The translations under genes and the position numbers were made by a program. A DNA stretch of 55,792 nucleotides from a virus (lineage: Duplodnaviria > Caudoviricetes), in the IMG/VR virus record IMGVR_UViG_3300048592_000081, positions 1 to 55,792 of that record; one strand, given 5' to 3'. Every line of letters starts with the position of its first letter. Position 1 is the stretch's first letter. Below the pieces are notes generated by a model. It had not been told where the DNA came from. It made no database searches and was given only the letters and a program-made list of their open reading frames with translations. Positions 30,028 to 37,354 of the stretch are shown piece by piece.

Positions 30028-31500
30028 TCAGGAATGACGATCCTTATTCCTCAACTTCCGAATCATGCGCTTGAGGATGGAGAACAGTTTCTCCTGCGCG
30101 TCCCCCTTGTTCTTCAGGCACTCATAGACATCCTCGTCGCGCGTGCCTTCCGCAACAAGCATCTCGACAATGACCGGGTTCTTCTGACCCTGCCGGTCAA
30201 GACGGCCGATGGTCTGAAGGTAATACTCAAGCGAGTAGATCAGGTCGAAGAACACGAGGATGTGCCCGCCGTGCTGCAGGTTGAGGCCGTGCCCTGCGCT
30301 CTGCGGATGGATCAGCAGCATCGGGATCTTCCCCTTGTTCCAATCCTTGATGCACTTCCCCTCCTTGTCCATGAGGGTTGCCTTCGGGAATGCCTTCCGC
30401 AGTCGTGCCAATGAGGATTGGAAGTAGTACGCGACAAGCAGCGTCTCCCCTTGTGTCTGCGCTTCCTCGTGCATCTCCTTGAGCGTGTCGATCTTGTGCT
30501 CATGCAGATGGTGGACTCGCTTGACCTTCTTCAGATCCTCGGTCTCGTAGTCCCCGACAAGCAGCGTCTCATAGACCGACCCTGACGCCATCTGCAGCAG
30601 CATGGATGACAGCATCGCGGCCGTCTTTGCCTCGATCTCCGTGCCATCGGTCAGCGTGATGATGAAGTCATGTTCGAGCTTGCGGATGAGATCGAGTTGG
30701 TGCTGCGACAACTTCACCTTGCGCTGTACGACAGTAGGCTCTGTGCGAGGCAGATAGTCCTTCGCTTTCATCACGAGCGTAATGTCGGCAATCTTTTCCA
30801 AGATCACGTCCTCGGCGCCAGGGCGCAACTTGTACTTCATTGAATACTTGTTGTAGCTGAAGTAGGCATCCCTGTACCAAGTGATGTTCTTGCCAAGACG
30901 ATGCCCGAGGTCAAGCAGATAGACCTGTGCCCATAGGTGCTCGTAGGTCTCGGCTGCAGGTGTCGCCGTCAACAAGTGCATTCGCGTGATCAGCCCATCG
31001 GTACGACGGACCTTGGCGAGAGCCTTGAATCGGGCTGTCTTATGGTCCTTTAGGGCTGAACTTTCATCAACTATGACCGTCCGGTACGGCCACTTCTCTT
31101 TCCAGAAATACACAAGCCATTCGACTTGCTCTCGGTTGATGACATGGATCGTTGCCGGATCGCGGGCGCAGTCTTCCTTGGTGCGACGCCCGTCAGCCCG
31201 GATCAACGTGTAGTTCATCCATGCTGTGTGCTGCCATGCCGCGATCTCGGTCGGCCAAGTGTCGGTAGCCACGCGCAGCGGCGCGATGACAAGTACCTTC
31301 TCGGTTGCGAACTCCTGCAGTAGATCGGAAATGACGGTGAGCGCCGAGACCGTCTTGCCCAAGCCCATGTCGATGCAGACAAGCGAGAACGGGTGTGCCA
31401 GCATGAACGGCACAGCGATGTCACGCTGATAGCCGTGCATCGCATCGCGGTCGCGCTCGACATGAGCAAACTTGGCGCGGATGCGGTCGTCAAAGGTCAT
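30028..31500 (-). CDS. SNF2-family helicase
   Basis: DMGLGKT, VIAPLRVA, IVDESS, LTATP, SAGHGLNLQ, Q.IGRL.RQGQ motifs. Confidence 0.95.
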   Translation of the reverse strand: MTFDDRIRAKFAHVERDRDAMHGYQRDIAVPFMLAHPFSLVCIDMGLGKTVSALTVISDLLQEFATEKVLVIAPLRVATDTWPTEIAAWQHTAWMNYTLIRADGRRTKEDCARDPATIHVINREQVEWLVYFWKEKWPYRTVIVDESSALKDHKTARFKALAKVRRTDGLITRMHLLTATPAAETYEHLWAQVYLLDLGHRLGKNITWYRDAYFSYNKYSMKYKLRPGAEDVILEKIADITLVMKAKDYLPRTEPTVVQRKVKLSQHQLDLIRKLEHDFIITLTDGTEIEAKTAAMLSSMLLQMASGSVYETLLVGDYETEDLKKVKRVHHLHEHKIDTLKEMHEEAQTQGETLLVAYYFQSSLARLRKAFPKATLMDKEGKCIKDWNKGKIPMLLIHPQSAGHGLNLQHGGHILVFFDLIYSLEYYLQTIGRLDRQGQKNPVIVEMLVAEGTRDEDVYECLKNKGDAQEKLFSILKRMIRKLRNKDRHS

Positions 31501-31858
31501 CGTGAATCACGACGTAAGTGAAGACGGGCTTGTTCAACGCACACATTTGGTCGATCATGTCCTTAGTCCCTCGGCTCTTGCCGTCCCATACAGCAACTAG
31601 AGCATCCGCGAGGTTCGCCATCTGAGCATTGCGTTTGAATCCTGCTGTGCGATCCAAGGCACCGTCCTTGTCTTTCCATGCGGCATAGAAACGCTCTACG
31701 GGCAGTCCGCACGATCGAGCGTATTGCAAGGCCAGTGTGTCGACACCACGGGCCATGCCGCTGAAGATCACAGTCGGTTTGAAACCGCTGCTCTTGACGG
31801 CACGCTCGACGGCAGTGATATCGGTAATGGTACGACTGCCAGCAATGACGACTTTCAT
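31490..31858 (-). CDS. SLOG-superfamily (YspA/DUF2493-like) protein
   Basis: IAGSR, SG.ARGVD, AG..RN..M, WDGKSRGT motifs. Confidence 0.85.
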   Translation of the reverse strand: MKVVIAGSRTITDITAVERAVKSSGFKPTVIFSGMARGVDTLALQYARSCGLPVERFYAAWKDKDGALDRTAGFKRNAQMANLADALVAVWDGKSRGTKDMIDQMCALNKPVFTYVVIHDDL

Positions 31859-32070
31859 TTGGGTTTGTCTGAATAGGAAGGATCAAAATAGCCGTATGCC
31901 CAATAGGCGACAGTAGTCCCGCAATCGTCACATCGATATTCAATTTCCATTGCCGGGCCATCGCCGTTTGGCAAGACTTCTAGGTGACTACGACAGATGT
32001 CTTTGAACGTCTCGCACCGGCACTTGAAGCAGCGCTTCGGAGAACCGTCTTCGTAGTAGTTGTCGCTCAT
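31855..32070 (-). CDS. small Zn-ribbon protein
   Basis: CFKC...CDDC, WAYG; ATGA-coupled on both sides. Confidence 0.7.
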   Translation of the reverse strand: MSDNYYEDGSPKRCFKCRCETFKDICRSHLEVLPNGDGPAMEIEYRCDDCGTTVAYWAYGYFDPSYSDKPK

Positions 32071-32351
32071 TTCAAGATCGCCCTCGCCTGATCCAGATCA
32101 TCCACGCAGTAGACCTCGCACGCCTGCGCTCGCAAGAGTCGCGCCACGTAAGCCTGCTGTGCTCGCGCGTCCTCGTCCTTCCGCTTGACCTCGATCCAGA
32201 CATGCCTGCCGTCCCGCACGGCGTAGACGTCGGGCATGCCGCGACGCGACGGGCTCGTGATCTTGACGGCGAACCACCCTCGGATGTGCGCGAAGTCGAT
32301 GATGTCCGACTGAATGTCGGATTCGAGTTCTTTCGGTGGCTCGAATCTCAT
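32067..32351 (-). CDS. VRR-NUC domain nuclease
   Basis: LES.IQ, G.PD, WIEVK, Q motif; ATG 32351 overlaps the polymerase stop. Confidence 0.9.
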   Translation of the reverse strand: MRFEPPKELESDIQSDIIDFAHIRGWFAVKITSPSRRGMPDVYAVRDGRHVWIEVKRKDEDARAQQAYVARLLRAQACEVYCVDDLDQARAILK

Positions 32352-33394
32352 CTCATTTCCTTCTTGCACTTGCCGCACATGGCACGTCCCTCGGGTTGTT
32401 CGTCCGTTTCGATCCAGGAGTCACGGATGGACTCACGGCCCTTGCCGCACAGCGCAATGTCACGTTTGACGTCGACAACGTGGTAGGTCTTCTGATCGGG
32501 CAAGCGGGCGATGATCCGGCCGCTTCGGCCGCGAAGTCGCGGGTCGTCCGTCTTGGCGCCAACGTCCTGCAGGATGGCGTATGCCTCGCGGATGTAATGG
32601 TCGTAGTCAATGTCGTGCGGCACGTAGGGCAACAGTTCCATCATTGTCTTCGCTCCGATGGTCTGCGGGACACTGTTGCCGTTCTTCTTGTACTTGAAGC
32701 CGCCTCGGACGTCCTTGCTGTAGTACCAGCGCAGAGCTTTGCCGATCTCTATTCCATCCTGATCAACGGCACCGCCAGTGACACGACGAACGGTCAGGAA
32801 CTTGCGAGGGTCGGCACACCACTCGATCGTTTCCTCGATCGGCGTGCCGTGCTTCAGGTACTCGACGACAGCCTCGGTGCAGATGTCCATGTCGGGGTTC
32901 TTCTTGAGCCCCGCTGCTCCGGGTAGACCACGGCCGGATGCCGTGAAAGCGCCTTTCGTCTTGACCTTGCCGTCCTTGTCGATTGCCACGTAGCTGTTCA
33001 CGTCGCGGCTATGAAGCGAACGGTACTCGGTCTCTTCGAGGCTGAAGCCCGTGCGCCGCTCCCATTCCAAGCACGCCTGATTGAACTCATCGCGGCAATC
33101 CCGAGGAACCTTGGTGACAAAGCCGTCTGTGTTGGCACTGACGACATTGATCATTCGTTCTTCGAGTTCTTCGATCAACATGAGGATCGACAACTGCCCG
33201 GTCAGCGTTGTCTGGATCATCAGGTTCGGGCTGTAGAGCGCCGAGAATGGCGAGCCGAATTTACCGAATGAGCCGTTCAACGTCAGTTTAAGAGACTCCG
33301 CAGTGTTCTTAGCCTCCATTTGTTCGGCCTCAAGTTGAGCGAGTTCAACTTCTAGACGAGCAATCTCAGAGCGCAATGAATTTGCGTCGCGCAT
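32348..33394 (-). CDS. family-B DNA polymerase, C-terminal subunit
   Basis: Motif B KLTLNGSFGK, motif C variant SANTDG, DVNSY, K.KG; own GAGGAGG SD. Confidence 0.9.
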   Translation of the reverse strand: MRDANSLRSEIARLEVELAQLEAEQMEAKNTAESLKLTLNGSFGKFGSPFSALYSPNLMIQTTLTGQLSILMLIEELEERMINVVSANTDGFVTKVPRDCRDEFNQACLEWERRTGFSLEETEYRSLHSRDVNSYVAIDKDGKVKTKGAFTASGRGLPGAAGLKKNPDMDICTEAVVEYLKHGTPIEETIEWCADPRKFLTVRRVTGGAVDQDGIEIGKALRWYYSKDVRGGFKYKKNGNSVPQTIGAKTMMELLPYVPHDIDYDHYIREAYAILQDVGAKTDDPRLRGRSGRIIARLPDQKTYHVVDVKRDIALCGKGRESIRDSWIETDEQPEGRAMCGKCKKEMR

Positions 33395-34034
33395 CTCGTG
33401 CCTCCTCTAACGTCTGAAAGTAGCCTAAGTATTCACGGACACCATCTCTTGTTGCTCTGACAACAAAACCACCGTCTTTATGGGGAGTAATACCTCGCTC
33501 GCCAGTTGAAGACGAACACCAGACCGTTTCATTCGAGATCGCAGTTACCGCATCATCCCGATTCGCAAAGAACTTGCGCTCAAAATTATTACGAGCTTTG
33601 AACGCAAGTTCAGCAGAATCAAATCTTCCAATTCGATAACGCACATGCTCAAAGTCCATGCGAGCCTCAAATCTCCCCTTTATTTGAACAACTCCGGTGA
33701 ATCCACTTGTATTGTTCTTAAACTTCCTGCGGTTCAAACATTGTGTGGTTCTCGTCGCCCACTTGCAATTGGCAGGCGAATATCCCTTGTCATTGTCCAT
33801 GCGCTCAATAGTGAAATTTTCACTTGGGCGAGCACCCATGTCTTGCACAAATTTCTCAAAGTGTTTCCAGCGCGGTGCAACCTTAATTCCACGGCCACCG
33901 TAGTTCTCATAGCCGGGGAAGTTCGGATTTGTGCATCGCTGCCACATGCCCGACCAACAGTAGTACAAGGGGTGGTCTCTAGGCGCATAGCCCTCAATCG
34001 GCACGTTGCGCGGGTGGTAAGTTCGGTTTGGCAT
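33366..34034 (-). CDS. HNH homing endonuclease with AP2-like DNA-binding domains
   Basis: W..M..RC.N, YGGRGI, TIERMDNDKGY.P.NC.WAT, NTSGFTGV; low GC; overlaps both polymerase halves. Confidence 0.92.
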   Translation of the reverse strand: MPNRTYHPRNVPIEGYAPRDHPLYYCWSGMWQRCTNPNFPGYENYGGRGIKVAPRWKHFEKFVQDMGARPSENFTIERMDNDKGYSPANCKWATRTTQCLNRRKFKNNTSGFTGVVQIKGRFEARMDFEHVRYRIGRFDSAELAFKARNNFERKFFANRDDAVTAISNETVWCSSSTGERGITPHKDGGFVVRATRDGVREYLGYFQTLEEARDARRKFIAL

Positions 34035-35175
34035 CTTCAATCCTTCGCAACTCGGCCTTCAAAGCGGCAATGCGCTTTTTCACTTCGTCAATCTTCTTCC
34101 CGATTGTACCGATACTCTTCTTCGCCGCGATGCGCCGGGCAAAAATGCGGCTGTAGATTTTCAGGAAGTGCGGGCCAATGTGCTTCGGGTACAACTCGCT
34201 CCGAAGAATGATCATCGGATAGTAGGAGGTCACGTCACGATCGAGAAGGACAAACTCATCGTCGCTGTAGTGACTGGATCGCGTCTCCGACGAATGCAAG
34301 CCTCCAATCCCCATGCGGTAAACCGAGCGCCCCATCTCAATCTTCAAGTCCTTCAGATAGTCGGGCATCTTGACGACGCCCGCCCGATCGACGACAAACT
34401 TGGTTCGACGAATGCCGTCGAGTACCTCGCGCATCGTCGGGGTCTGGAACTGAATGAAGTCCGGCACCTCGTAGTTGAAATAGCCGGGCTCGACGTCAGG
34501 CGCGTACAACTTTCGCCCCGTCGCCCGCTCGATCTCGGTCTTGATCACAGCCTCCGCGATCTGAGCGTCCGACTTGCTGCGCAGATCCACGCCGTACTCA
34601 ACGCTCATCATCGCGCGCAACTGCAACTGCGCCTTCAACTCGTCAAGCATGTCATGCGTCACATCCAGGTCGTTGCCGTGGTACGCGCGCAGCACCTCGA
34701 TCTTGTTCTCGTCAATGCGGTCATCCACCTCGATCGGCAGTTCCTGCATCTTCCGAGAGTGCATGCGGCCGGCGTAAATCTTCAAGCTCGGCATCTGCGG
34801 AGCACCGGGGCTCACGGACATGAGATCGATGCAATCGAAGAAGTCCGGGACCGTCAGCCCGAGCCTGTCGAGCATCGTCCACCAAGGCACTCCGTACTGA
34901 ATCAATTCATCGCTGGCACGCTTGAGTTCGCCGTTCGTGGCGCCACTCATCGCGTACAGGATCATCGGAATGTCGTAGGCTTTGAAGTTGAAGCCGACCA
35001 CGCGCCACTTGCGGAAGATCGTCGCAATACTCTTGCGGTCAAGCGGGCTGTCATTCCACTTCTCAAAGACGCGCACGCGACCGTCAGCGGCAGACTTGAA
35101 GCCGATTGACCAATAGTTGACGTAGCACTCCGTATCGCAGAGAGCAATGGGGCGGTCTTCGGTGTAGTTGTTCAT
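33994..35175 (-). CDS. family-B DNA polymerase, N-terminal subunit (exonuclease plus motif A)
   Basis: DTE (ExoI), GFN...YD (ExoII), Y..ND (ExoIII), GGLHS, DVTSYYP (motif A); start uncertain (35175 or 35202). Confidence 0.9.
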   Translation of the reverse strand: MNNYTEDRPIALCDTECYVNYWSIGFKSAADGRVRVFEKWNDSPLDRKSIATIFRKWRVVGFNFKAYDIPMILYAMSGATNGELKRASDELIQYGVPWWTMLDRLGLTVPDFFDCIDLMSVSPGAPQMPSLKIYAGRMHSRKMQELPIEVDDRIDENKIEVLRAYHGNDLDVTHDMLDELKAQLQLRAMMSVEYGVDLRSKSDAQIAEAVIKTEIERATGRKLYAPDVEPGYFNYEVPDFIQFQTPTMREVLDGIRRTKFVVDRAGVVKMPDYLKDLKIEMGRSVYRMGIGGLHSSETRSSHYSDDEFVLLDRDVTSYYPMIILRSELYPKHIGPHFLKIYSRIFARRIAAKKSIGTIGKKIDEVKKRIAALKAELRRIEDAKPNLPPAQRAD

Positions 35176-35179
35176 CGCC

Positions 35180-35211
35180 GAAACAAGAACGCCCGGCATC
35201 ACCCGGGCGTT
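35180..35211 (-). terminator. intrinsic terminator after SSB
   Basis: AACGCCCGG-N6-CCGGGCGTT stem followed by CTTGTTTC. Confidence 0.6.
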
Positions 35212-35243
35212 GCGGTCACTACTGGTTGTGGATCAGCGAACGA

Positions 35244-35894
35244 TCACAGACCGTCGTCGTCATCGCGGTCCATGCCGTCACCGGCCGGGCCTTCACCGTC
35301 GTCCTCGTTGCTCCACGCATCACTGTCGTCGATGCGACCCTCACCGAACGGCTTGTCGTCGCGGATGAACTGCACGCCCACGAGGCCCGCGTTGAGCCGC
35401 TTCCCGTAGCCGGCACCGACCTTCTTCCCGTCCTGATACCACGGACGGATGAGGATGTGGCCCCAGCACCCACCGTAGATCATGTCGGCGATCTTCTCGG
35501 GCTCACTGACAAGCTCGCCACGCTTATTGCGCACGCTCGGCCGCCGTTCCTCGCGGGCCGAGACGATCCAGTGCCCACCGTAGGTGTCGGTCTTGTCGCT
35601 GTCGTCGCCATTGCGGCAGAACTTCTTGTCACTGCTCACCGTGGCGTTGTCGTTCTGCTTCAGCAGATCGTTCATCGCCTCAACGATCAGGTTCTTCGCC
35701 TCGACGTGCGTCTTCTTGGGCAGCATGCCGACGATGCCGTACTTCGGCTTCGCCTTGCTGTCCTCGTCACCACCCTTGCCGGCGTAAGGCTTGTCCAGGT
35801 GCGGGTACGAGAACCGGACGTTCTCGATCTTGATCATCCCGTTGGTGTACAGAATGGCGTTAGCAACGCGCTTCTTGATTTCCATCGTCGACAT
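35244..35894 (-). CDS. DUF2815-family ssDNA-binding/annealing protein
   Basis: NVRFSYP.L, RNGD, YGGCW, L.GVQF.RD...FG and an acidic tail; start MSTME at 35894. Confidence 0.9.
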   Translation of the reverse strand: MSTMEIKKRVANAILYTNGMIKIENVRFSYPHLDKPYAGKGGDEDSKAKPKYGIVGMLPKKTHVEAKNLIVEAMNDLLKQNDNATVSSDKKFCRNGDDSDKTDTYGGHWIVSAREERRPSVRNKRGELVSEPEKIADMIYGGCWGHILIRPWYQDGKKVGAGYGKRLNAGLVGVQFIRDDKPFGEGRIDDSDAWSNEDDGEGPAGDGMDRDDDDGL

Positions 35895-35895
35895 T

Positions 35896-37221
35896 TCACA
35901 GATCCTCTTCGGTTTCACGGTCTTCGTCGTTCTCGAACACGAGAGCCGACACGTCTTCCACCGCTGGCCGCTTGTCGGAAAGCGGAACCAGGGTGGCTCT
36001 GCCCGGTGGCTTGAACGCCAGGTCGGACATGAGTTCCTTGATCTCGTCGGGCTTCTTGCCGGCCTTGCGCAGCCGCTTCTCGGCTTGGTTCGGCGAGATC
36101 ATCTTCGATTGGTACAGGTCATCGCGCGGCACGCCGACCGACACGAGCGCATCGGCTGCCTTGCTCTCGCTCATGAACTTGCGCTTGCTGCGGCCCTCGA
36201 CGAACTTCATTCCGGGAATGTGCTCGCCGTCCTTTCCGCGACGCATGAGTTCGTCATCCATCGCAGCCCACCACGCTTCTGCCATCCGGCGATACGGATG
36301 CAGGCGGGCCAGTTGAGCGGTCGTCAGGCTACCGGCCTGCGCCATGTGCATCTTGAACGGTTCGAGGTCGTCGTCAAGTCGCGCCACGAAGTCGCGCATC
36401 TGCTCGACGGTCTGCGTCTCGTCACTGAACACGCCGCTGATCAGATCCTCTTGAAGTTTGGCGTTTGCAGCGCACGTCGCGCGAACCTTGCAGAACCGAC
36501 ATTGCTTCGGTCCAGGTGTGCGCGGTGCATCGAGGCGCCACGCTGCAGCCATTCGCTCACGACAGTAGTCCTCGAACTCACGCAGCCGCCTTGCGGTCGT
36601 GTGCCACTCATCGAAGTGGTTCAACCGAGGCTGATTGATCCTAATGATGAAGTCGTCGAAGCCGTAGTGCTCGAACCGCGGATCGCGCCACAACCCGATG
36701 GCATAGAGCATCAGTTGCGGGTTCTCTTCGGCGTAGACGATGTTGTCCGGCGAAGCACCAAACTTGTGATCGCACACCGTAGCACGCCCGGGACGCAACG
36801 CAGCGAAGTCGAGCGTGCCGCCTTGATTCGGGATCGGGGTGAGGTGTGAGAAATCAACGTGCAACTCCACTACCTGTTCGCCGGGCTCCCACTCGCAACG
36901 GTCTACGCAGAGGCCCGCGTGGTACAGCATCTCCGAGTCGATCTCGATGAGGTGCCCGGTGTCGATGTCTCGGCCGACCCATCGCTTCGTGCCGAGGTAA
37001 TGGTCTGGTCGACGTCCGGTGTTGAGCCAGTCTTCGGTAACGGCGTGAGCGACAGTTCCCCATGCCGCGTCGAATCCGGCCTCGTCGTCGGCCAGAACAT
37101 TAGGCACAAGACTGCCACTGCAAGCCAAGTACATATGGCTCGAAGAAGCTCCAAAAATGGAATGCTCTCCACCGTCTTTCGCCTTAGCCAGTGCGTCGAG
37201 GTTGATGTGGTGCTCTGTCAT
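35896..37221 (-). CDS. DUF2800 Cas4-like PD-(D/E)XK nuclease
   Basis: HS..GASS....C.GS, GT.AH, GTLD, D.KFG, N.QL.LYA.G, QPR, C.FC...C motifs; start probably MTEHH at 37221. Confidence 0.9.
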   Translation of the reverse strand: MTEHHINLDALAKAKDGGEHSIFGASSSHMYLACSGSLVPNVLADDEAGFDAAWGTVAHAVTEDWLNTGRRPDHYLGTKRWVGRDIDTGHLIEIDSEMLYHAGLCVDRCEWEPGEQVVELHVDFSHLTPIPNQGGTLDFAALRPGRATVCDHKFGASPDNIVYAEENPQLMLYAIGLWRDPRFEHYGFDDFIIRINQPRLNHFDEWHTTARRLREFEDYCRERMAAAWRLDAPRTPGPKQCRFCKVRATCAANAKLQEDLISGVFSDETQTVEQMRDFVARLDDDLEPFKMHMAQAGSLTTAQLARLHPYRRMAEAWWAAMDDELMRRGKDGEHIPGMKFVEGRSKRKFMSESKAADALVSVGVPRDDLYQSKMISPNQAEKRLRKAGKKPDEIKELMSDLAFKPPGRATLVPLSDKRPAVEDVSALVFENDEDRETEEDL

Positions 37222-37354
37222 TTCGGTGATGAGGCGACCGCCGCTAGGCAGACACTCCGACATGAACCACCCGCATTGCGAGCCGCCCCATCACCGAAAT
37301 GCCCCGTCAGAACGGGGCACTCCCGACGCGCCGCAGCGCACGGGAGAAGGCCGG

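What the first reader, a model, noticed from the sequence alone, without database searches (positions are those of the whole stretch)
33311..34116. Homing endonuclease splits the DNA polymerase and appears to supply a heterodimeric coiled-coil to rejoin it
Seen: PolB is broken in the fingers hairpin, between RRIAAKK and KNTAESLKLTLNGSFGK (motif B), by an HNH-AP2 gene overlapping both halves. That leaves no room for an intron core, and there are no intein motifs. The N-half gains four heptads (IGTIGKK IDEVKKR IAALKAE LRRIEDA, net basic). The C-half has its own GAGGAGG SD and gains ANSLRSE IARLEVE LAQLEAE QMEA (net acidic). Both arms share the AT-richer codons of the endonuclease. From memory, intact homologs have only a short turn here. 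Inference: a splicing-free selfish element that neutralises its insertion with a K/E zipper extending the antiparallel finger helices, a third strategy beside introns and inteins. The nearest precedent I know is mobE-split nrdA in phage Aeh1.
Basis: partly seen in the sequence, partly recalled or inferred. Interest (0 to 1): 0.85.

Follow-up and report, generated by a model that had tools for sequence, protein, structure and literature searches.

The report
Endonuclease cassette splits and re-zips polymerase
A phage's only DNA polymerase gene is cut in two by a selfish nuclease gene that arrives with two matching helical "arms", which most likely hold the two protein halves together without any splicing; one such case was already published for another enzyme.

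Summary
On the minus strand of a complete 55.8-kb phage genome lie a PolB N-half (33994-35202), an AP2-bearing endonuclease-like gene (33366-34034) and a PolB C-half (32348-33394). The break is at the tip of the fingers hairpin.

The 40-residue N-arm and 28-residue C-arm are absent from the closest relative, which is 93% identical and intact. That relative has two residues, GD, in place of the cassette. The arms have the nuclease gene's low GC3, not the polymerase's.

The same layout (arm, nuclease gene, arm) recurs in 9 distinct loci and in 23 of the 120 best N-half homologues. It is scattered over the polymerase tree. Arm lengths change together by one heptad and arm charges are anti-correlated.

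Some intact relatives carry the two arms fused, and AlphaFold2 models these as a long helical hairpin. One split locus lacks the nuclease gene. No intron or intein signal was found. A complex prediction gave only weak support for arm pairing.

The idea is not a new "third strategy". Crona et al. 2011 showed cassette-derived tails to be essential in mobE-split NrdA of phage Aeh1. This scan has also noted similar polymerase cases on other DNA. Verdict: a new, well-documented variant of a known kind.

The parts
33994..35202 (-). PolB N-half (402 aa): exonuclease domain, N-terminal part of the palm with motif A (DRDVTSYYP), first finger helix and the N-arm
   Evidence: ORF. phrog_1252 DNA polymerase, E 5.7e-95. 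The intact-polymerase profile A3 matches 34114-35175 as profile positions 1-354.
33997..34116 (-). N-arm: residues 363-402 of the N-half. About four heptads (I364, I367, I371, V374, I378, L381, L385, I388), then a Pro-rich tail encoded in the overlap with the nuclease gene.
   Evidence: Absent from the 93%-identical intact protein P0001. GC3 54% against 80% in the polymerase core. Heptad columns are conserved in 21 distinct N-arms.
33366..34034 (-). Free-standing endonuclease-like gene (222 aa from the ATG): an N-terminal beta-beta-alpha domain of a phage family annotated HNH, followed by two AP2 DNA-binding domains
   Evidence: phrog_374 'HNH endonuclease', E 1.2e-55. AlphaFold2 model with pLDDT 83; best Foldseek hit is the tandem-AP2 protein WRINKLED1, E 3.2e-4. 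No Pfam HNH model matched. Homologues lie between the polymerase halves in 8 other distinct loci.
34041..34045 (-). Shine-Dalgarno-like AAGGA, 6 nt before the nuclease gene's ATG (34034), inside the N-arm coding sequence
   Evidence: Read from the sequence.
33401..33407 (-). Shine-Dalgarno GAGGAGG, 6 nt before the C-half's ATG (33394), inside the end of the nuclease gene
   Evidence: Read from the sequence.
33311..33394 (-). C-arm: residues 1-28 of the C-half (hydrophobic L7, I11, L14, L18, L21), a member of the conserved M-x-E-L-D-S-L-R-x-E-L type
   Evidence: Absent from intact P0001. GC3 39%. The same N-terminal arm is present on 36 further database C-halves.
32348..33394 (-). PolB C-half (348 aa): C-arm, second finger helix with motif B (KLTLNGSFGK), motif C (SANTDG), thumb and a C-terminal Cys-rich tail
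   Evidence: ORF. phrog_1252, E 3.6e-89. The intact-polymerase profile matches 32354-33337 as profile positions 348-677.

Best explanation
A mobile cassette sits at the tip of the fingers hairpin of the phage's only detectable DNA polymerase, which is family B. The cassette consists of N-arm codons plus a stop, an AP2-bearing endonuclease gene, and a ribosome-binding site, ATG and C-arm codons. The polymerase is therefore made as two chains.

Each arm lengthens one of the two antiparallel finger helices by about three to four heptads. The two arms zip into a two-helix antiparallel coiled coil that stands in for the lost covalent turn. The shared palm interface holds the halves together as well.

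The cassette spreads as one unit among related polymerase genes, presumably by endonuclease-triggered gene conversion. It can later lose the nuclease gene. That leaves either a split gene with arms or an in-frame fusion, which is an intact polymerase with an over-long fingers hairpin.

Shown here: the anatomy, the insert-specificity and foreign composition of the arms, the recurrence and patchy distribution of the cassette, the covariation of the arms, and the hairpin model for a fused form. Inferred: physical pairing of the arms, any need for them in enzyme activity, and nuclease activity and homing.
For: 1. Clean presence/absence. The nearest relative, P0001, is intact and 93% identical. It is 97-100% identical in the 30-residue windows on either side of the break, and two residues (GD) stand where the cassette is.
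2. The arms belong to the insert by composition. GC3 is 54% and 39% in the arms and 49% in the nuclease gene, against 80% and 75% in the polymerase core.
3. Recurrence.
- 23 of the 120 best N-half homologues are split and all end in a heptad arm.
- 36 further C-halves start with the conserved arm.
- Of 226 intact and 10 distinct split loci, 9 have a homologous nuclease gene between the halves, including polymerases only 39-61% identical to this one.
4. Mobility.
- On a tree of 111 N-cores the split state needs 18 changes, of which at least 15 are forced by well-supported branches. Shuffled labels need 21.8 on average.
- In the split pair P0003/P0121, identity to the window falls from 97-100% far from the break to 53-63% beside it, as expected for a co-conversion tract.
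5. The arms co-vary.
- In 19 pairs, 4 of 4 long N-arms go with long C-arms and 15 of 15 short with short. The step is 7 residues in each arm (r = 0.89).
- Net charges of the two arms are anti-correlated (r = -0.78).
6. Arms in cis form a hairpin.
- Intact tips in three groups (the L032 group, L193, L313) resemble C-arms better than composition-matched shuffles do (p <= 0.01).
- The AlphaFold2 model of L313 (pLDDT 91) has helices 354-384 and 388-421. The turn is at G-E-D, exactly where an N-arm end meets a C-arm.
7. Two-chain prediction of finger helix plus arm for each half: ipSAE 0.60 (median of three runs), best of 3 controls 0.01, partner pLDDT at least 65, and at least 68% of contacts shared between runs. 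The tool rates this as weak support. In its calibration the mark was reached by 58 of 80 solved complexes and 2 of 110 mismatched pairs, but scores of 0.60 or under came from only 7 of those 80 and from both passing mismatches.
8. No splicing apparatus was found: no Rfam match at E <= 10 other than three chance-level hits, and no Pfam intein family.
9. The gene matters to the phage. The genome is complete by IMG/VR's end repeats and CheckV. It has no PolA match and no other match to the polymerase profile.
Against: - No experiment shows that the arms bind each other or are needed. The one complex prediction is only weak support, and no interface was reported.
- Both covariation statistics count related sequences as independent. 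The four long pairs fall into two sequence groups and may represent only one or two events.
- 46 of 226 intact loci have tips longer than the usual 11 residues. For 12 of the 18 distinct tips of 32 residues or more, similarity to C-arms did not beat shuffles at p <= 0.01. Long finger tips can therefore also arise, or persist, without any visible link to the cassette.
- Nuclease identity tracks polymerase identity (r = 0.70 over 36 pairs). This also fits long vertical co-descent.
- In the predicted beta-beta-alpha motif, the position of the canonical first His is Arg (R78) in 9 of 9 cassette nucleases, and no Pfam HNH model matches. Nuclease activity is therefore unproven.
- Contigs from four public runs showed no form joined across the cassette, so the intact allele was not seen in those samples.
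Confidence: 0.7

Rival explanations
1. The long helical tip is an older, host-side feature of some of these polymerases. The endonuclease gene merely landed in its loop. The arms are then flanking exon sequence that is co-converted along with the gene, not something the selfish element evolved or supplies.
For: Intact genes with 32-48-residue tips exist, and three groups of them are homologous to the arms. They are modelled as a stable hairpin. Nuclease and polymerase identities co-vary.
Against: In this window the arms have the nuclease gene's GC3, not the polymerase's. The 93%-identical relative has the short tip with exact boundaries. L193 keeps a Met where C-halves start, and L313 keeps the G-E that ends many N-arms. 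Both details point from split to fused, not the other way.
Confidence: 0.2
2. The arms are tolerated leftovers. The halves assemble through the large palm, exonuclease and thumb interfaces alone, and the arms contribute nothing.
For: In Aeh1 NrdA the tails were not needed for heterodimer formation between NrdA-a and NrdA-b (PMC3045599, discussion). Motifs A and C lie on different halves here, so a large native interface exists.
Against: The heptad pattern is kept across polymerases that are only about 40-60% identical. The arms also co-vary in length, by one heptad, and in charge. The arms persist after loss of the nuclease gene (L311) and after fusion.
Confidence: 0.1
3. The middle protein is no longer an active homing nuclease. 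It may be a DNA-binding relic or a domesticated factor, and the split arrangement is a frozen, vertically inherited state.
For: Arg replaces the canonical His in 9 of 9. There is no Pfam HNH match. Nuclease and polymerase identities are correlated, r = 0.70.
Against: The split state is almost as scattered on the polymerase tree as shuffled labels. The ORF is full length in 9 of 9 loci. The cassette is compositionally foreign in this genome. There is a mosaic identity gradient around the break in P0003/P0121.
Confidence: 0.15
4. A contiguous polymerase is restored by RNA splicing, protein splicing or ribosomal bypass.
For: Introns and inteins are common in phage polymerase genes (general knowledge; reference list of PMC10580990).
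Against: No group I or II intron model matched at E <= 10. Only about 130 nt of the insert lie outside the nuclease ORF. The arms are far too short for an intein and lack its terminal residues. The C-half has its own strong Shine-Dalgarno sequence and ATG, and database gene callers report separate C-halves that begin at the same Met.
Confidence: 0.03

Closest known systems
Aeromonas phage Aeh1 nrdA-a / mobE / nrdA-b with cassette-derived tails (Friedrich et al. 2007, recalled and seen in reference lists only; Crona et al. 2011, PMC3045599, abstract, introduction and discussion read)
   Same: A free-standing HNH-type endonuclease gene splits an essential replication-related gene. The nuclease gene overlaps the downstream half. 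Unique tails on the C-terminus of the first half and the N-terminus of the second came with the insert. The first tail is basic and the second acidic, as in this window. There is no RNA or protein splicing. The authors proposed that the mechanism could be general.
   Different: - The host gene here is PolB, not RNR.
- The arms here are regular heptad helices that prolong an existing antiparallel helical hairpin. In Aeh1 the tails promote dimerisation of heterodimers rather than joining the two pieces.
- The Aeh1 case was a single genome. Here the cassette is seen in many polymerase lineages, with co-varying arms, a copy lacking the nuclease gene, and fused copies.
- Nothing here has been tested at the bench.
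Split gene 43 (PolB) of Aeromonas phages 25 and 44RR (Petrov et al. 2010; recalled, and as described in passages of the review PMC2988022)
   Same: A phage family B polymerase made as two chains. An endonuclease gene lies at the split in one phage, and a short untranslated spacer without a nuclease gene in the other (compare L311 here).
   Different: It is a different polymerase lineage (T4-like) and a different endonuclease type (seg-like). In what I read, no paired helical arms are described. I did not see the primary paper, so I cannot say where in gp43 the split lies.
T4 gene 39 / mobA / gene 60 (mentioned in PMC3045599 discussion; bypass cassette preprint 10.1101/2022.08.31.505936, search listing only)
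   Same: An endonuclease insertion splits an essential gene and carries along sequence that neutralises the damage. Crona et al. also point to tail-like extensions on gp39 and gp60.
   Different: The neutralising device best known there is a translational bypass element. No bypass is needed or indicated here.
Fractured genes with split inteins around a homing endonuclease gene (Dassa et al. 2009, PMC2677866; search listing and abstract start only)
   Same: The same gene order: half, endonuclease, half. The added sequences at the break bring the halves together.
   Different: Those added sequences are intein halves that ligate the protein. The arms here are 40 and 28 residues of plain coiled coil, with no intein blocks.
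IPA-HNH homing endonucleases (atypical HNH plus AP2; Barth et al. 2023, PMC10448857, passages read)
   Same: An N-terminal domain too divergent for the Pfam HNH_3 model, plus C-terminal AP2 domain(s). They are frequent next to phage DNA polymerase genes (29% of neighbourhoods in that paper).
   Different: Membership was not tested against that paper's own profile. The passages I read describe no split-and-zip arrangement. Its supplementary tables, which could list such loci, were not available to me.

Membership tests
Family B DNA polymerase | Sequence similarity to PolB enzymes over the fingers, motif B and motif C | tested here: met
   A profile of 37 intact relatives searched against PDB sequences gave 23 hits at E <= 0.01, all family B polymerases. 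The best was E. coli Pol II, E 4.1e-6, aligned over the fingers tip. NCBIfam gave weak PolB-type hits for the C-half. No Pfam family reached E <= 0.01.
Family B DNA polymerase | PolB fold, with a two-helix fingers hairpin that carries motif B | tested here: met
   The AlphaFold2 model of an intact relative (L313; pLDDT 91, pTM 0.88) has helices 354-384 and 388-421. Foldseek top hits are all PolB; 9°N polymerase scores E 3.5e-15. The model is of a relative, not of the window's own two chains.
Family B DNA polymerase | Catalytic motifs A (DxxSLYPS-like), B (KxxxNSxYG-like), C (DTDS-like) and Exo I (DxE). The consensus forms are recalled. | tested here: met
   Read from the translations: DTECY, DRDVTSYYP, KLTLNGSFGK and SANTDG. 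The corresponding columns are invariant in alignment A3.
Endonuclease-fragmented gene reassembled by cassette-derived tails (Aeh1 NrdA type) | The host gene is contiguous in close relatives, and a free-standing endonuclease gene lies between the halves | tested here: met
   P0001 is intact at 93% identity. The middle gene is at 33366-34034.
Endonuclease-fragmented gene reassembled by cassette-derived tails (Aeh1 NrdA type) | The tails at the break are unique to the split form and came with the insert | tested here: met
   The arms are absent from P0001 and from 170 of 226 intact loci. The arms share the nuclease gene's GC3.
Endonuclease-fragmented gene reassembled by cassette-derived tails (Aeh1 NrdA type) | The tails are required for assembly or activity | not testable with these tools
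   Only indirect evidence: conservation, length and charge covariation, and a weak-support complex prediction.
Endonuclease-fragmented gene reassembled by cassette-derived tails (Aeh1 NrdA type) | No RNA or protein splicing | tested here: inconclusive
   No intron model matched, and no intein family or intein motifs were found. No RNA-level data: no listed holder of the stretch is on record as RNA.
HNH (His-Me finger) homing endonuclease with AP2 domains | A beta-beta-alpha-metal nuclease motif with the catalytic His | tested here: inconclusive
   PHROG families named 'HNH endonuclease' match (E 1.2e-55). The model has strand 75-78, strand 90-93 and helix 95-102. However, no Pfam HNH model matches, no solved HNH structure was found by sequence or fold, and the expected His position is Arg in 9 of 9.
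HNH (His-Me finger) homing endonuclease with AP2 domains | AP2 DNA-binding domain(s) | tested here: met
   Foldseek: the tandem-AP2 protein WRINKLED1 at E 3.2e-4, probability 1.00, with further AP2 domains below it. Pfam AP2 scores E 1.5e-4 on the L051 homologue, below the curated cut-off.
HNH (His-Me finger) homing endonuclease with AP2 domains | Mobility: site-specific cleavage of the empty allele and biased inheritance | not testable with these tools
   Indirect only: patchy distribution on the polymerase tree and a mosaic identity gradient around the break.
Group I / group II intron | A conserved ribozyme core flanking the ORF | tested here: not met
   The Rfam E-value scan of 32300-35300 returned only three chance-level hits to unrelated families.
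Split intein (fractured gene) | Intein N and C fragments with their terminal blocks, and a nucleophile at +1 (features recalled) | tested here: not met
   The arms are 40 and 28 residues of heptad repeat. Lys is the first residue after the C-arm. No Pfam intein or Hint hit.
Antiparallel two-helix coiled coil | Heptad a/d hydrophobic pattern on both partners, and matching lengths | tested here: met
   Conserved 3-4 spacing in both arm alignments. In 19 of 19 pairs the two arms fall in the same length class.
Antiparallel two-helix coiled coil | The two helices actually pack against each other | tested here: inconclusive
   In cis, the fused form is modelled as a continuous hairpin with high confidence. 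In trans, ipSAE 0.60 against 0.01 in controls is rated weak support, and no contacts were given.

The most novel reading that the evidence does not exclude
The arms plus the endonuclease gene form a self-contained 'split-and-zip' module that homes as one unit into the fingers tip of many PolB lineages. Its life cycle would run: invasion of a short-tip gene, then a two-chain enzyme held by a coiled coil, then loss of the nuclease gene, then an in-frame fusion. This leaves permanent architectural change in the form of over-long fingers hairpins. On this reading selfish endonucleases would be a recurrent source of structural innovation in replicative polymerases, and the arms would be a natural, portable heterodimerisation tag.
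Probability: 0.5. Interest if true: 0.75.

Novelty: new variant of a known kind. Interest (0 to 1): 0.62.

Why it matters
Only one system (Aeh1 NrdA) has been shown at the bench to be reassembled by tails that came in with a homing endonuclease. Its authors predicted that similar tails exist elsewhere but would be hard to spot.

This case offers four things that one did not:
- The tails have a simple, recognisable structure: heptad helices that continue an existing hairpin.
- The cassette recurs in many polymerase lineages.
- The two arms co-vary.
- All stages of a life cycle can be seen: empty site, full cassette, a copy that has lost the nuclease gene, and fused arms.

That makes the "molecular antidote" idea testable by simple deletion and swap experiments. 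It also suggests how endonuclease invasions can permanently lengthen a polymerase's fingers. Finally, it provides natural split sites and zipper pairs for engineering two-piece polymerases.

Tried and rejected
- Intron: the Rfam E-value scan found nothing relevant.
- Intein: no Pfam hit and no motifs.
- Single-protein scan of viral contigs with the N-half: 16 pattern matches, none a relative. An alignment query had to be used instead.
- Same nuclease gene elsewhere: of 80 viral loci found with the nuclease alignment, only 3 were full-length and inside this polymerase. These were the same 3 found with the polymerase query. The other 77 were partial relatives in other contexts, and I did not inspect them for arms.
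- Cultured phages: the INPHARED search with the nuclease protein gave 1133 records, none with a close full-length copy inside this polymerase family. The Bastille hit is a free-standing gene, not I-BasI.
- Degenerate DNA pattern for one common C-arm start, scanned over viral contigs: 0 matches. The question of whether the arm occurs in other genes stays open.
- Nuclease domain: sequence and profile searches of the PDB found no solved HNH. The Atlas search gave only viral hypothetical clusters, some with AP2.
- Expression: no RNA holder was listed.
- Laying contigs from 4 runs: pieces bridge both cassette junctions. On the C-arm side these are X1 record 2, X2 record 7 and X4 record 19; on the N-arm side, X1 record 3 and X3 record 15. 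No joint skips the cassette. One joint, 33010 to 34541, has only 21 letters on its shorter side and was disregarded. Parts without cover are not interpreted.
- Scan notes: look-ups by sequence and by place (relatives) found nothing.
- Literature: searches for this PolB arrangement found no description of it. This holds only for the open-access library searched. Supplementary tables of PMC10448857 could list such loci and were not available.


Full report
**What is there**

The window is a complete virus record of 55,792 bp with direct terminal repeats. Three tightly packed genes lie on the minus strand:
- a 402-aa polymerase N-half (33994-35202);
- a 222-aa endonuclease-like gene (33366-34034), with its ATG preceded by AAGGA;
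- a 348-aa polymerase C-half (32348-33394), with its ATG preceded by GAGGAGG.

The middle gene overlaps the end of the first gene by 41 nt and the start of the third by 29 nt. The neighbours are an exonuclease and an SSB upstream, and a resolvase-like gene and a helicase downstream. This is the same order as around the single polymerase gene of Burkholderia phage AH2. No PolA family match exists in the genome. A profile of intact relatives hits only the two halves. The split enzyme is therefore the only polymerase detectable in the genome with these two searches.

**It is a family B polymerase broken at the fingers tip**

Pfam finds nothing at E <= 0.01, but three other lines of evidence agree:
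- PHROG family 1252 (DNA polymerase) matches both halves end to end.
- A profile of 37 intact relatives retrieves only family B polymerases from the PDB: 23 of 23 hits at E <= 0.01, with E. coli Pol II best at 4.1e-6. The alignment runs through the fingers, motif B and motif C.
- An AlphaFold2 model of an intact relative (pLDDT 91) finds PolB structures at E about 1e-15.

The break falls between the two finger helices, a few residues before motif B.

**The arms belong to the insert**

The closest database relative, P0001, is 93% identical and uninterrupted. It reads ...RRIAAKKS-GD-KNTAESLK.... Identity to the window is 97-100% in the 30-residue windows on both sides of the break. The insert is therefore precisely delimited: residues 363-402 of the N-half, the nuclease gene, and residues 1-28 of the C-half replace two residues. 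The PHROG profile also joins position 396 directly to 395.

Third-position GC is 80% and 75% in the polymerase core. It is 49% in the nuclease gene, 54% in the N-arm and 39% in the C-arm.

**The layout recurs and is patchy**

Among the 120 best N-half homologues, 23 are stand-alone N-halves of 364-397 residues. Every one ends in a heptad arm after the RRIAAK motif. Among the 120 best C-half homologues, 36 are stand-alone C-halves that begin with a conserved arm of the type M-x-E-L-D-S-L-R-x-E-L. Two further rows were mis-called fragments of intact genes and were dropped.

I fetched 320 loci from four scans and classified them by script. The result was 226 intact, 81 incomplete (77 of which came from the nuclease query and lack the polymerase), and 15 split rows including the window itself. 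Those 15 rows collapse to 10 distinct split loci plus L235, a Bradyrhizobium copy with an in-frame stop.

Nine of the 10 distinct split loci carry a full-length homologue of the window's nuclease gene between the halves. These are the window, L045, L046, L051, L172, L214, L247, L249 and L274. Their polymerases are only 39-61% identical to the window's. In most of them the nuclease ORF overlaps the end of the N-half. In L045 and L046 its stop overlaps the C-half's ATG.

I built a FastTree of 111 N-cores. Ten of the 120 proteins were left out because my motif-A pattern did not find them, and all ten were of intact length. On this tree the split state needs 18 changes, at least 15 of them forced by well-supported branches. 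Shuffled labels need 21.8 on average. The cassette therefore comes and goes much faster than the polymerase diverges.

The split pair P0003/P0121 carries a different arm subtype. It is 97-100% identical to the window far from the break but only 53-63% identical beside it. That is the pattern expected from co-conversion during homing.

**Evidence that the two arms work as a pair**

Both arms show hydrophobic residues at 3-4 spacing. The pattern continues the native finger helices and is conserved in the arm alignments.

The arms fall into two length classes that differ by exactly seven residues in each arm. All 4 long N-arms go with long C-arms, and all 15 short N-arms with short C-arms (r = 0.89).

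Net charges of the two arms are anti-correlated (r = -0.78). The window (+5/-4) is at one end of the range, one locus is reversed (-4/+4), and several are near neutral. Both statistics treat related sequences as independent. The long class comprises two sequence groups, so the number of independent events is small.

A two-chain prediction used the finger helix plus arm of each half. It gave ipSAE 0.60 (median of three runs) against 0.01 for the best of three controls. Partner pLDDT was at least 65 and at least 68% of contacts were shared between runs. The tool rates this as weak support. In its calibration the mark was reached by 58 of 80 solved complexes and 2 of 110 mismatched pairs, but scores of 0.60 or lower came from only 7 of those 80 and from both passing mismatches. 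No interface was reported.

**Intact genes with long tips, and a split gene without the nuclease**

The usual distance between my two anchor residues is 11 residues, seen in 170 of 226 intact loci. 22 loci have 22-27 residues and 24 have 32-48.

I compared the 18 distinct long tips with the arm collections. Three groups resemble C-arms better than composition-matched shuffles do (p <= 0.01 from 200 shuffles). The three groups are the L032 group, L193 and L313, which together make 6 of the 18 rows. Several also resemble N-arms at p <= 0.05. The other 12 rows do not pass p <= 0.01 against C-arms.

L193 keeps a Met exactly where C-halves start. L313 reads ...IKGE-DTLRARLAELE..., that is, an N-arm end joined to a C-arm. 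The AlphaFold2 model of L313 shows helices 354-384 and 388-421 at high confidence, with the turn at G-E-D. So when the two arms are on one chain, they are predicted to form a prolonged fingers hairpin.

L311 is split and has both arms, but only 144 nt lie between the N-half stop and the anchor residue in the C-half. That stretch contains a short ORF starting MSNTKIH, which resembles the start of the nuclease genes, and a ribosome-binding site for the C-half.

Together these look like stages of a cycle: empty site, invasion, loss of the nuclease gene, and fusion. The direction from split to fused is inferred from the retained Met and G-E. It has not been shown by a rooted tree.

**The middle gene**

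PHROG families named HNH endonuclease match strongly, and relatives are common in phages (1133 records). The AlphaFold2 model (pLDDT 83) has two C-terminal AP2 domains. Its best fold hit is the tandem-AP2 protein WRINKLED1 on DNA, E 3.2e-4.

The N-terminal part has a strand-strand-helix element at residues 75-102 that resembles a His-Me finger. However, no Pfam HNH model and no solved HNH structure were found. The residue where I expect the catalytic His is Arg in all nine cassette copies. The expected position of that His is recalled, not computed.

The domain layout fits the 'IPA-HNH' endonucleases of Barth et al. 2023, which are often next to polymerase genes (PMC10448857, passages read). 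I did not test membership with their profile. Nuclease activity and homing remain inferences.

**Splicing**

No intron family matches in 32300-35300 at E <= 10; there are only three chance-level hits to unrelated families. The arms are too short for an intein and lack its features. The C-half has its own strong translation start.

Contigs from four public runs reproduce both cassette junctions, so the arrangement is not an assembly artefact of this one record. No contig skips the cassette.

**Comparison with what is known**

In phage Aeh1, tails that originated with the mobE insertion sit on the C-terminus of NrdA-a and the N-terminus of NrdA-b. One is basic and the other acidic, and both are essential for activity. 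The authors called them a molecular antidote to fragmentation and suggested that similar tails exist elsewhere, for example on T4 gp39 and gp60 (PMC3045599).

Split PolB genes are also known in Aeromonas phages 25 and 44RR (review PMC2988022).

My literature searches found no description of heptad arms that prolong the fingers hairpin, travel with an AP2-type endonuclease gene and recur across many lineages. That statement is limited to the open-access library searched.

Earlier notes of this scan describe comparable cases on other DNA. These include a cyanophage polymerase whose broken ends match a hairpin that relatives carry unbroken (e1-5377538), and 'portable peptide tags' at split polymerases (e1-5686860). 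I reached my reading before seeing these notes. They are AI notes and do not count as support.

**Verdict**

The charge rule is weaker than stated, and the concept is already published for another enzyme.

This is a new and unusually well-documented variant of a known kind. It is of real interest to people working on homing endonucleases and phage replication, and it can be tested directly at the bench.

Noticed in passing
window 33366-34034 (-), residue 78; also L045, L046, L051, L172, L214, L247, L249, L274: In the predicted strand-strand-helix element of the nuclease-like domain, the position where a His-Me finger normally has its catalytic His is Arg in 9 of 9 cassette copies. H7 and H21 are invariant further upstream. 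The active site is either atypical or lost.
   Followed up: partly
L311:4801-5095: A split polymerase with both arms but no nuclease gene. Only a short ORF starting MSNTKIH and a ribosome-binding site lie between the halves. It looks like a cassette that has lost its endonuclease.
   Followed up: partly
L235:5030-5220 (Bradyrhizobium contig): A prophage-borne polymerase of the long-tip type with an in-frame TAA inside the tip, and a frame change just upstream. Probably a decaying gene.
   Followed up: no
P0003 / P0121 (same 41,618-bp contig, judged by the listing): A split relative with a different arm subtype. Its polymerase is nearly identical to the window's far from the break and only 53-63% identical beside it. 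This mosaic is typical of co-conversion.
   Followed up: partly
L021, L028, L052, L053, L058, L176, L226, L229, L234 (fingers tips): Intact polymerases whose tips of 32-37 residues show no significant similarity to C-arms. These may be independent finger extensions or very old fusions.
   Followed up: no
phage records (e.g. Pseudomonas phage JG054, Vibrio phage BP15): The C-half aligns to several cultured phages in 2-3 pieces, which suggests other insertions further along the polymerase gene.
   Followed up: no
window 30028-37263: The replication module has the same gene order as Burkholderia phage AH2: exonuclease, SSB, polymerase, resolvase-like gene, helicase. The best cultured relative is only about 48-54% identical in the polymerase.
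   Followed up: partly
window 32538-33280: In two sludge or wastewater runs, a high-depth contig about 10% different from the window covers the C-half core (depth 149 and 56). Near-identical contigs over the cassette have depth 3-4. A more abundant relative co-occurs; its state at the break could not be read.
   Followed up: no
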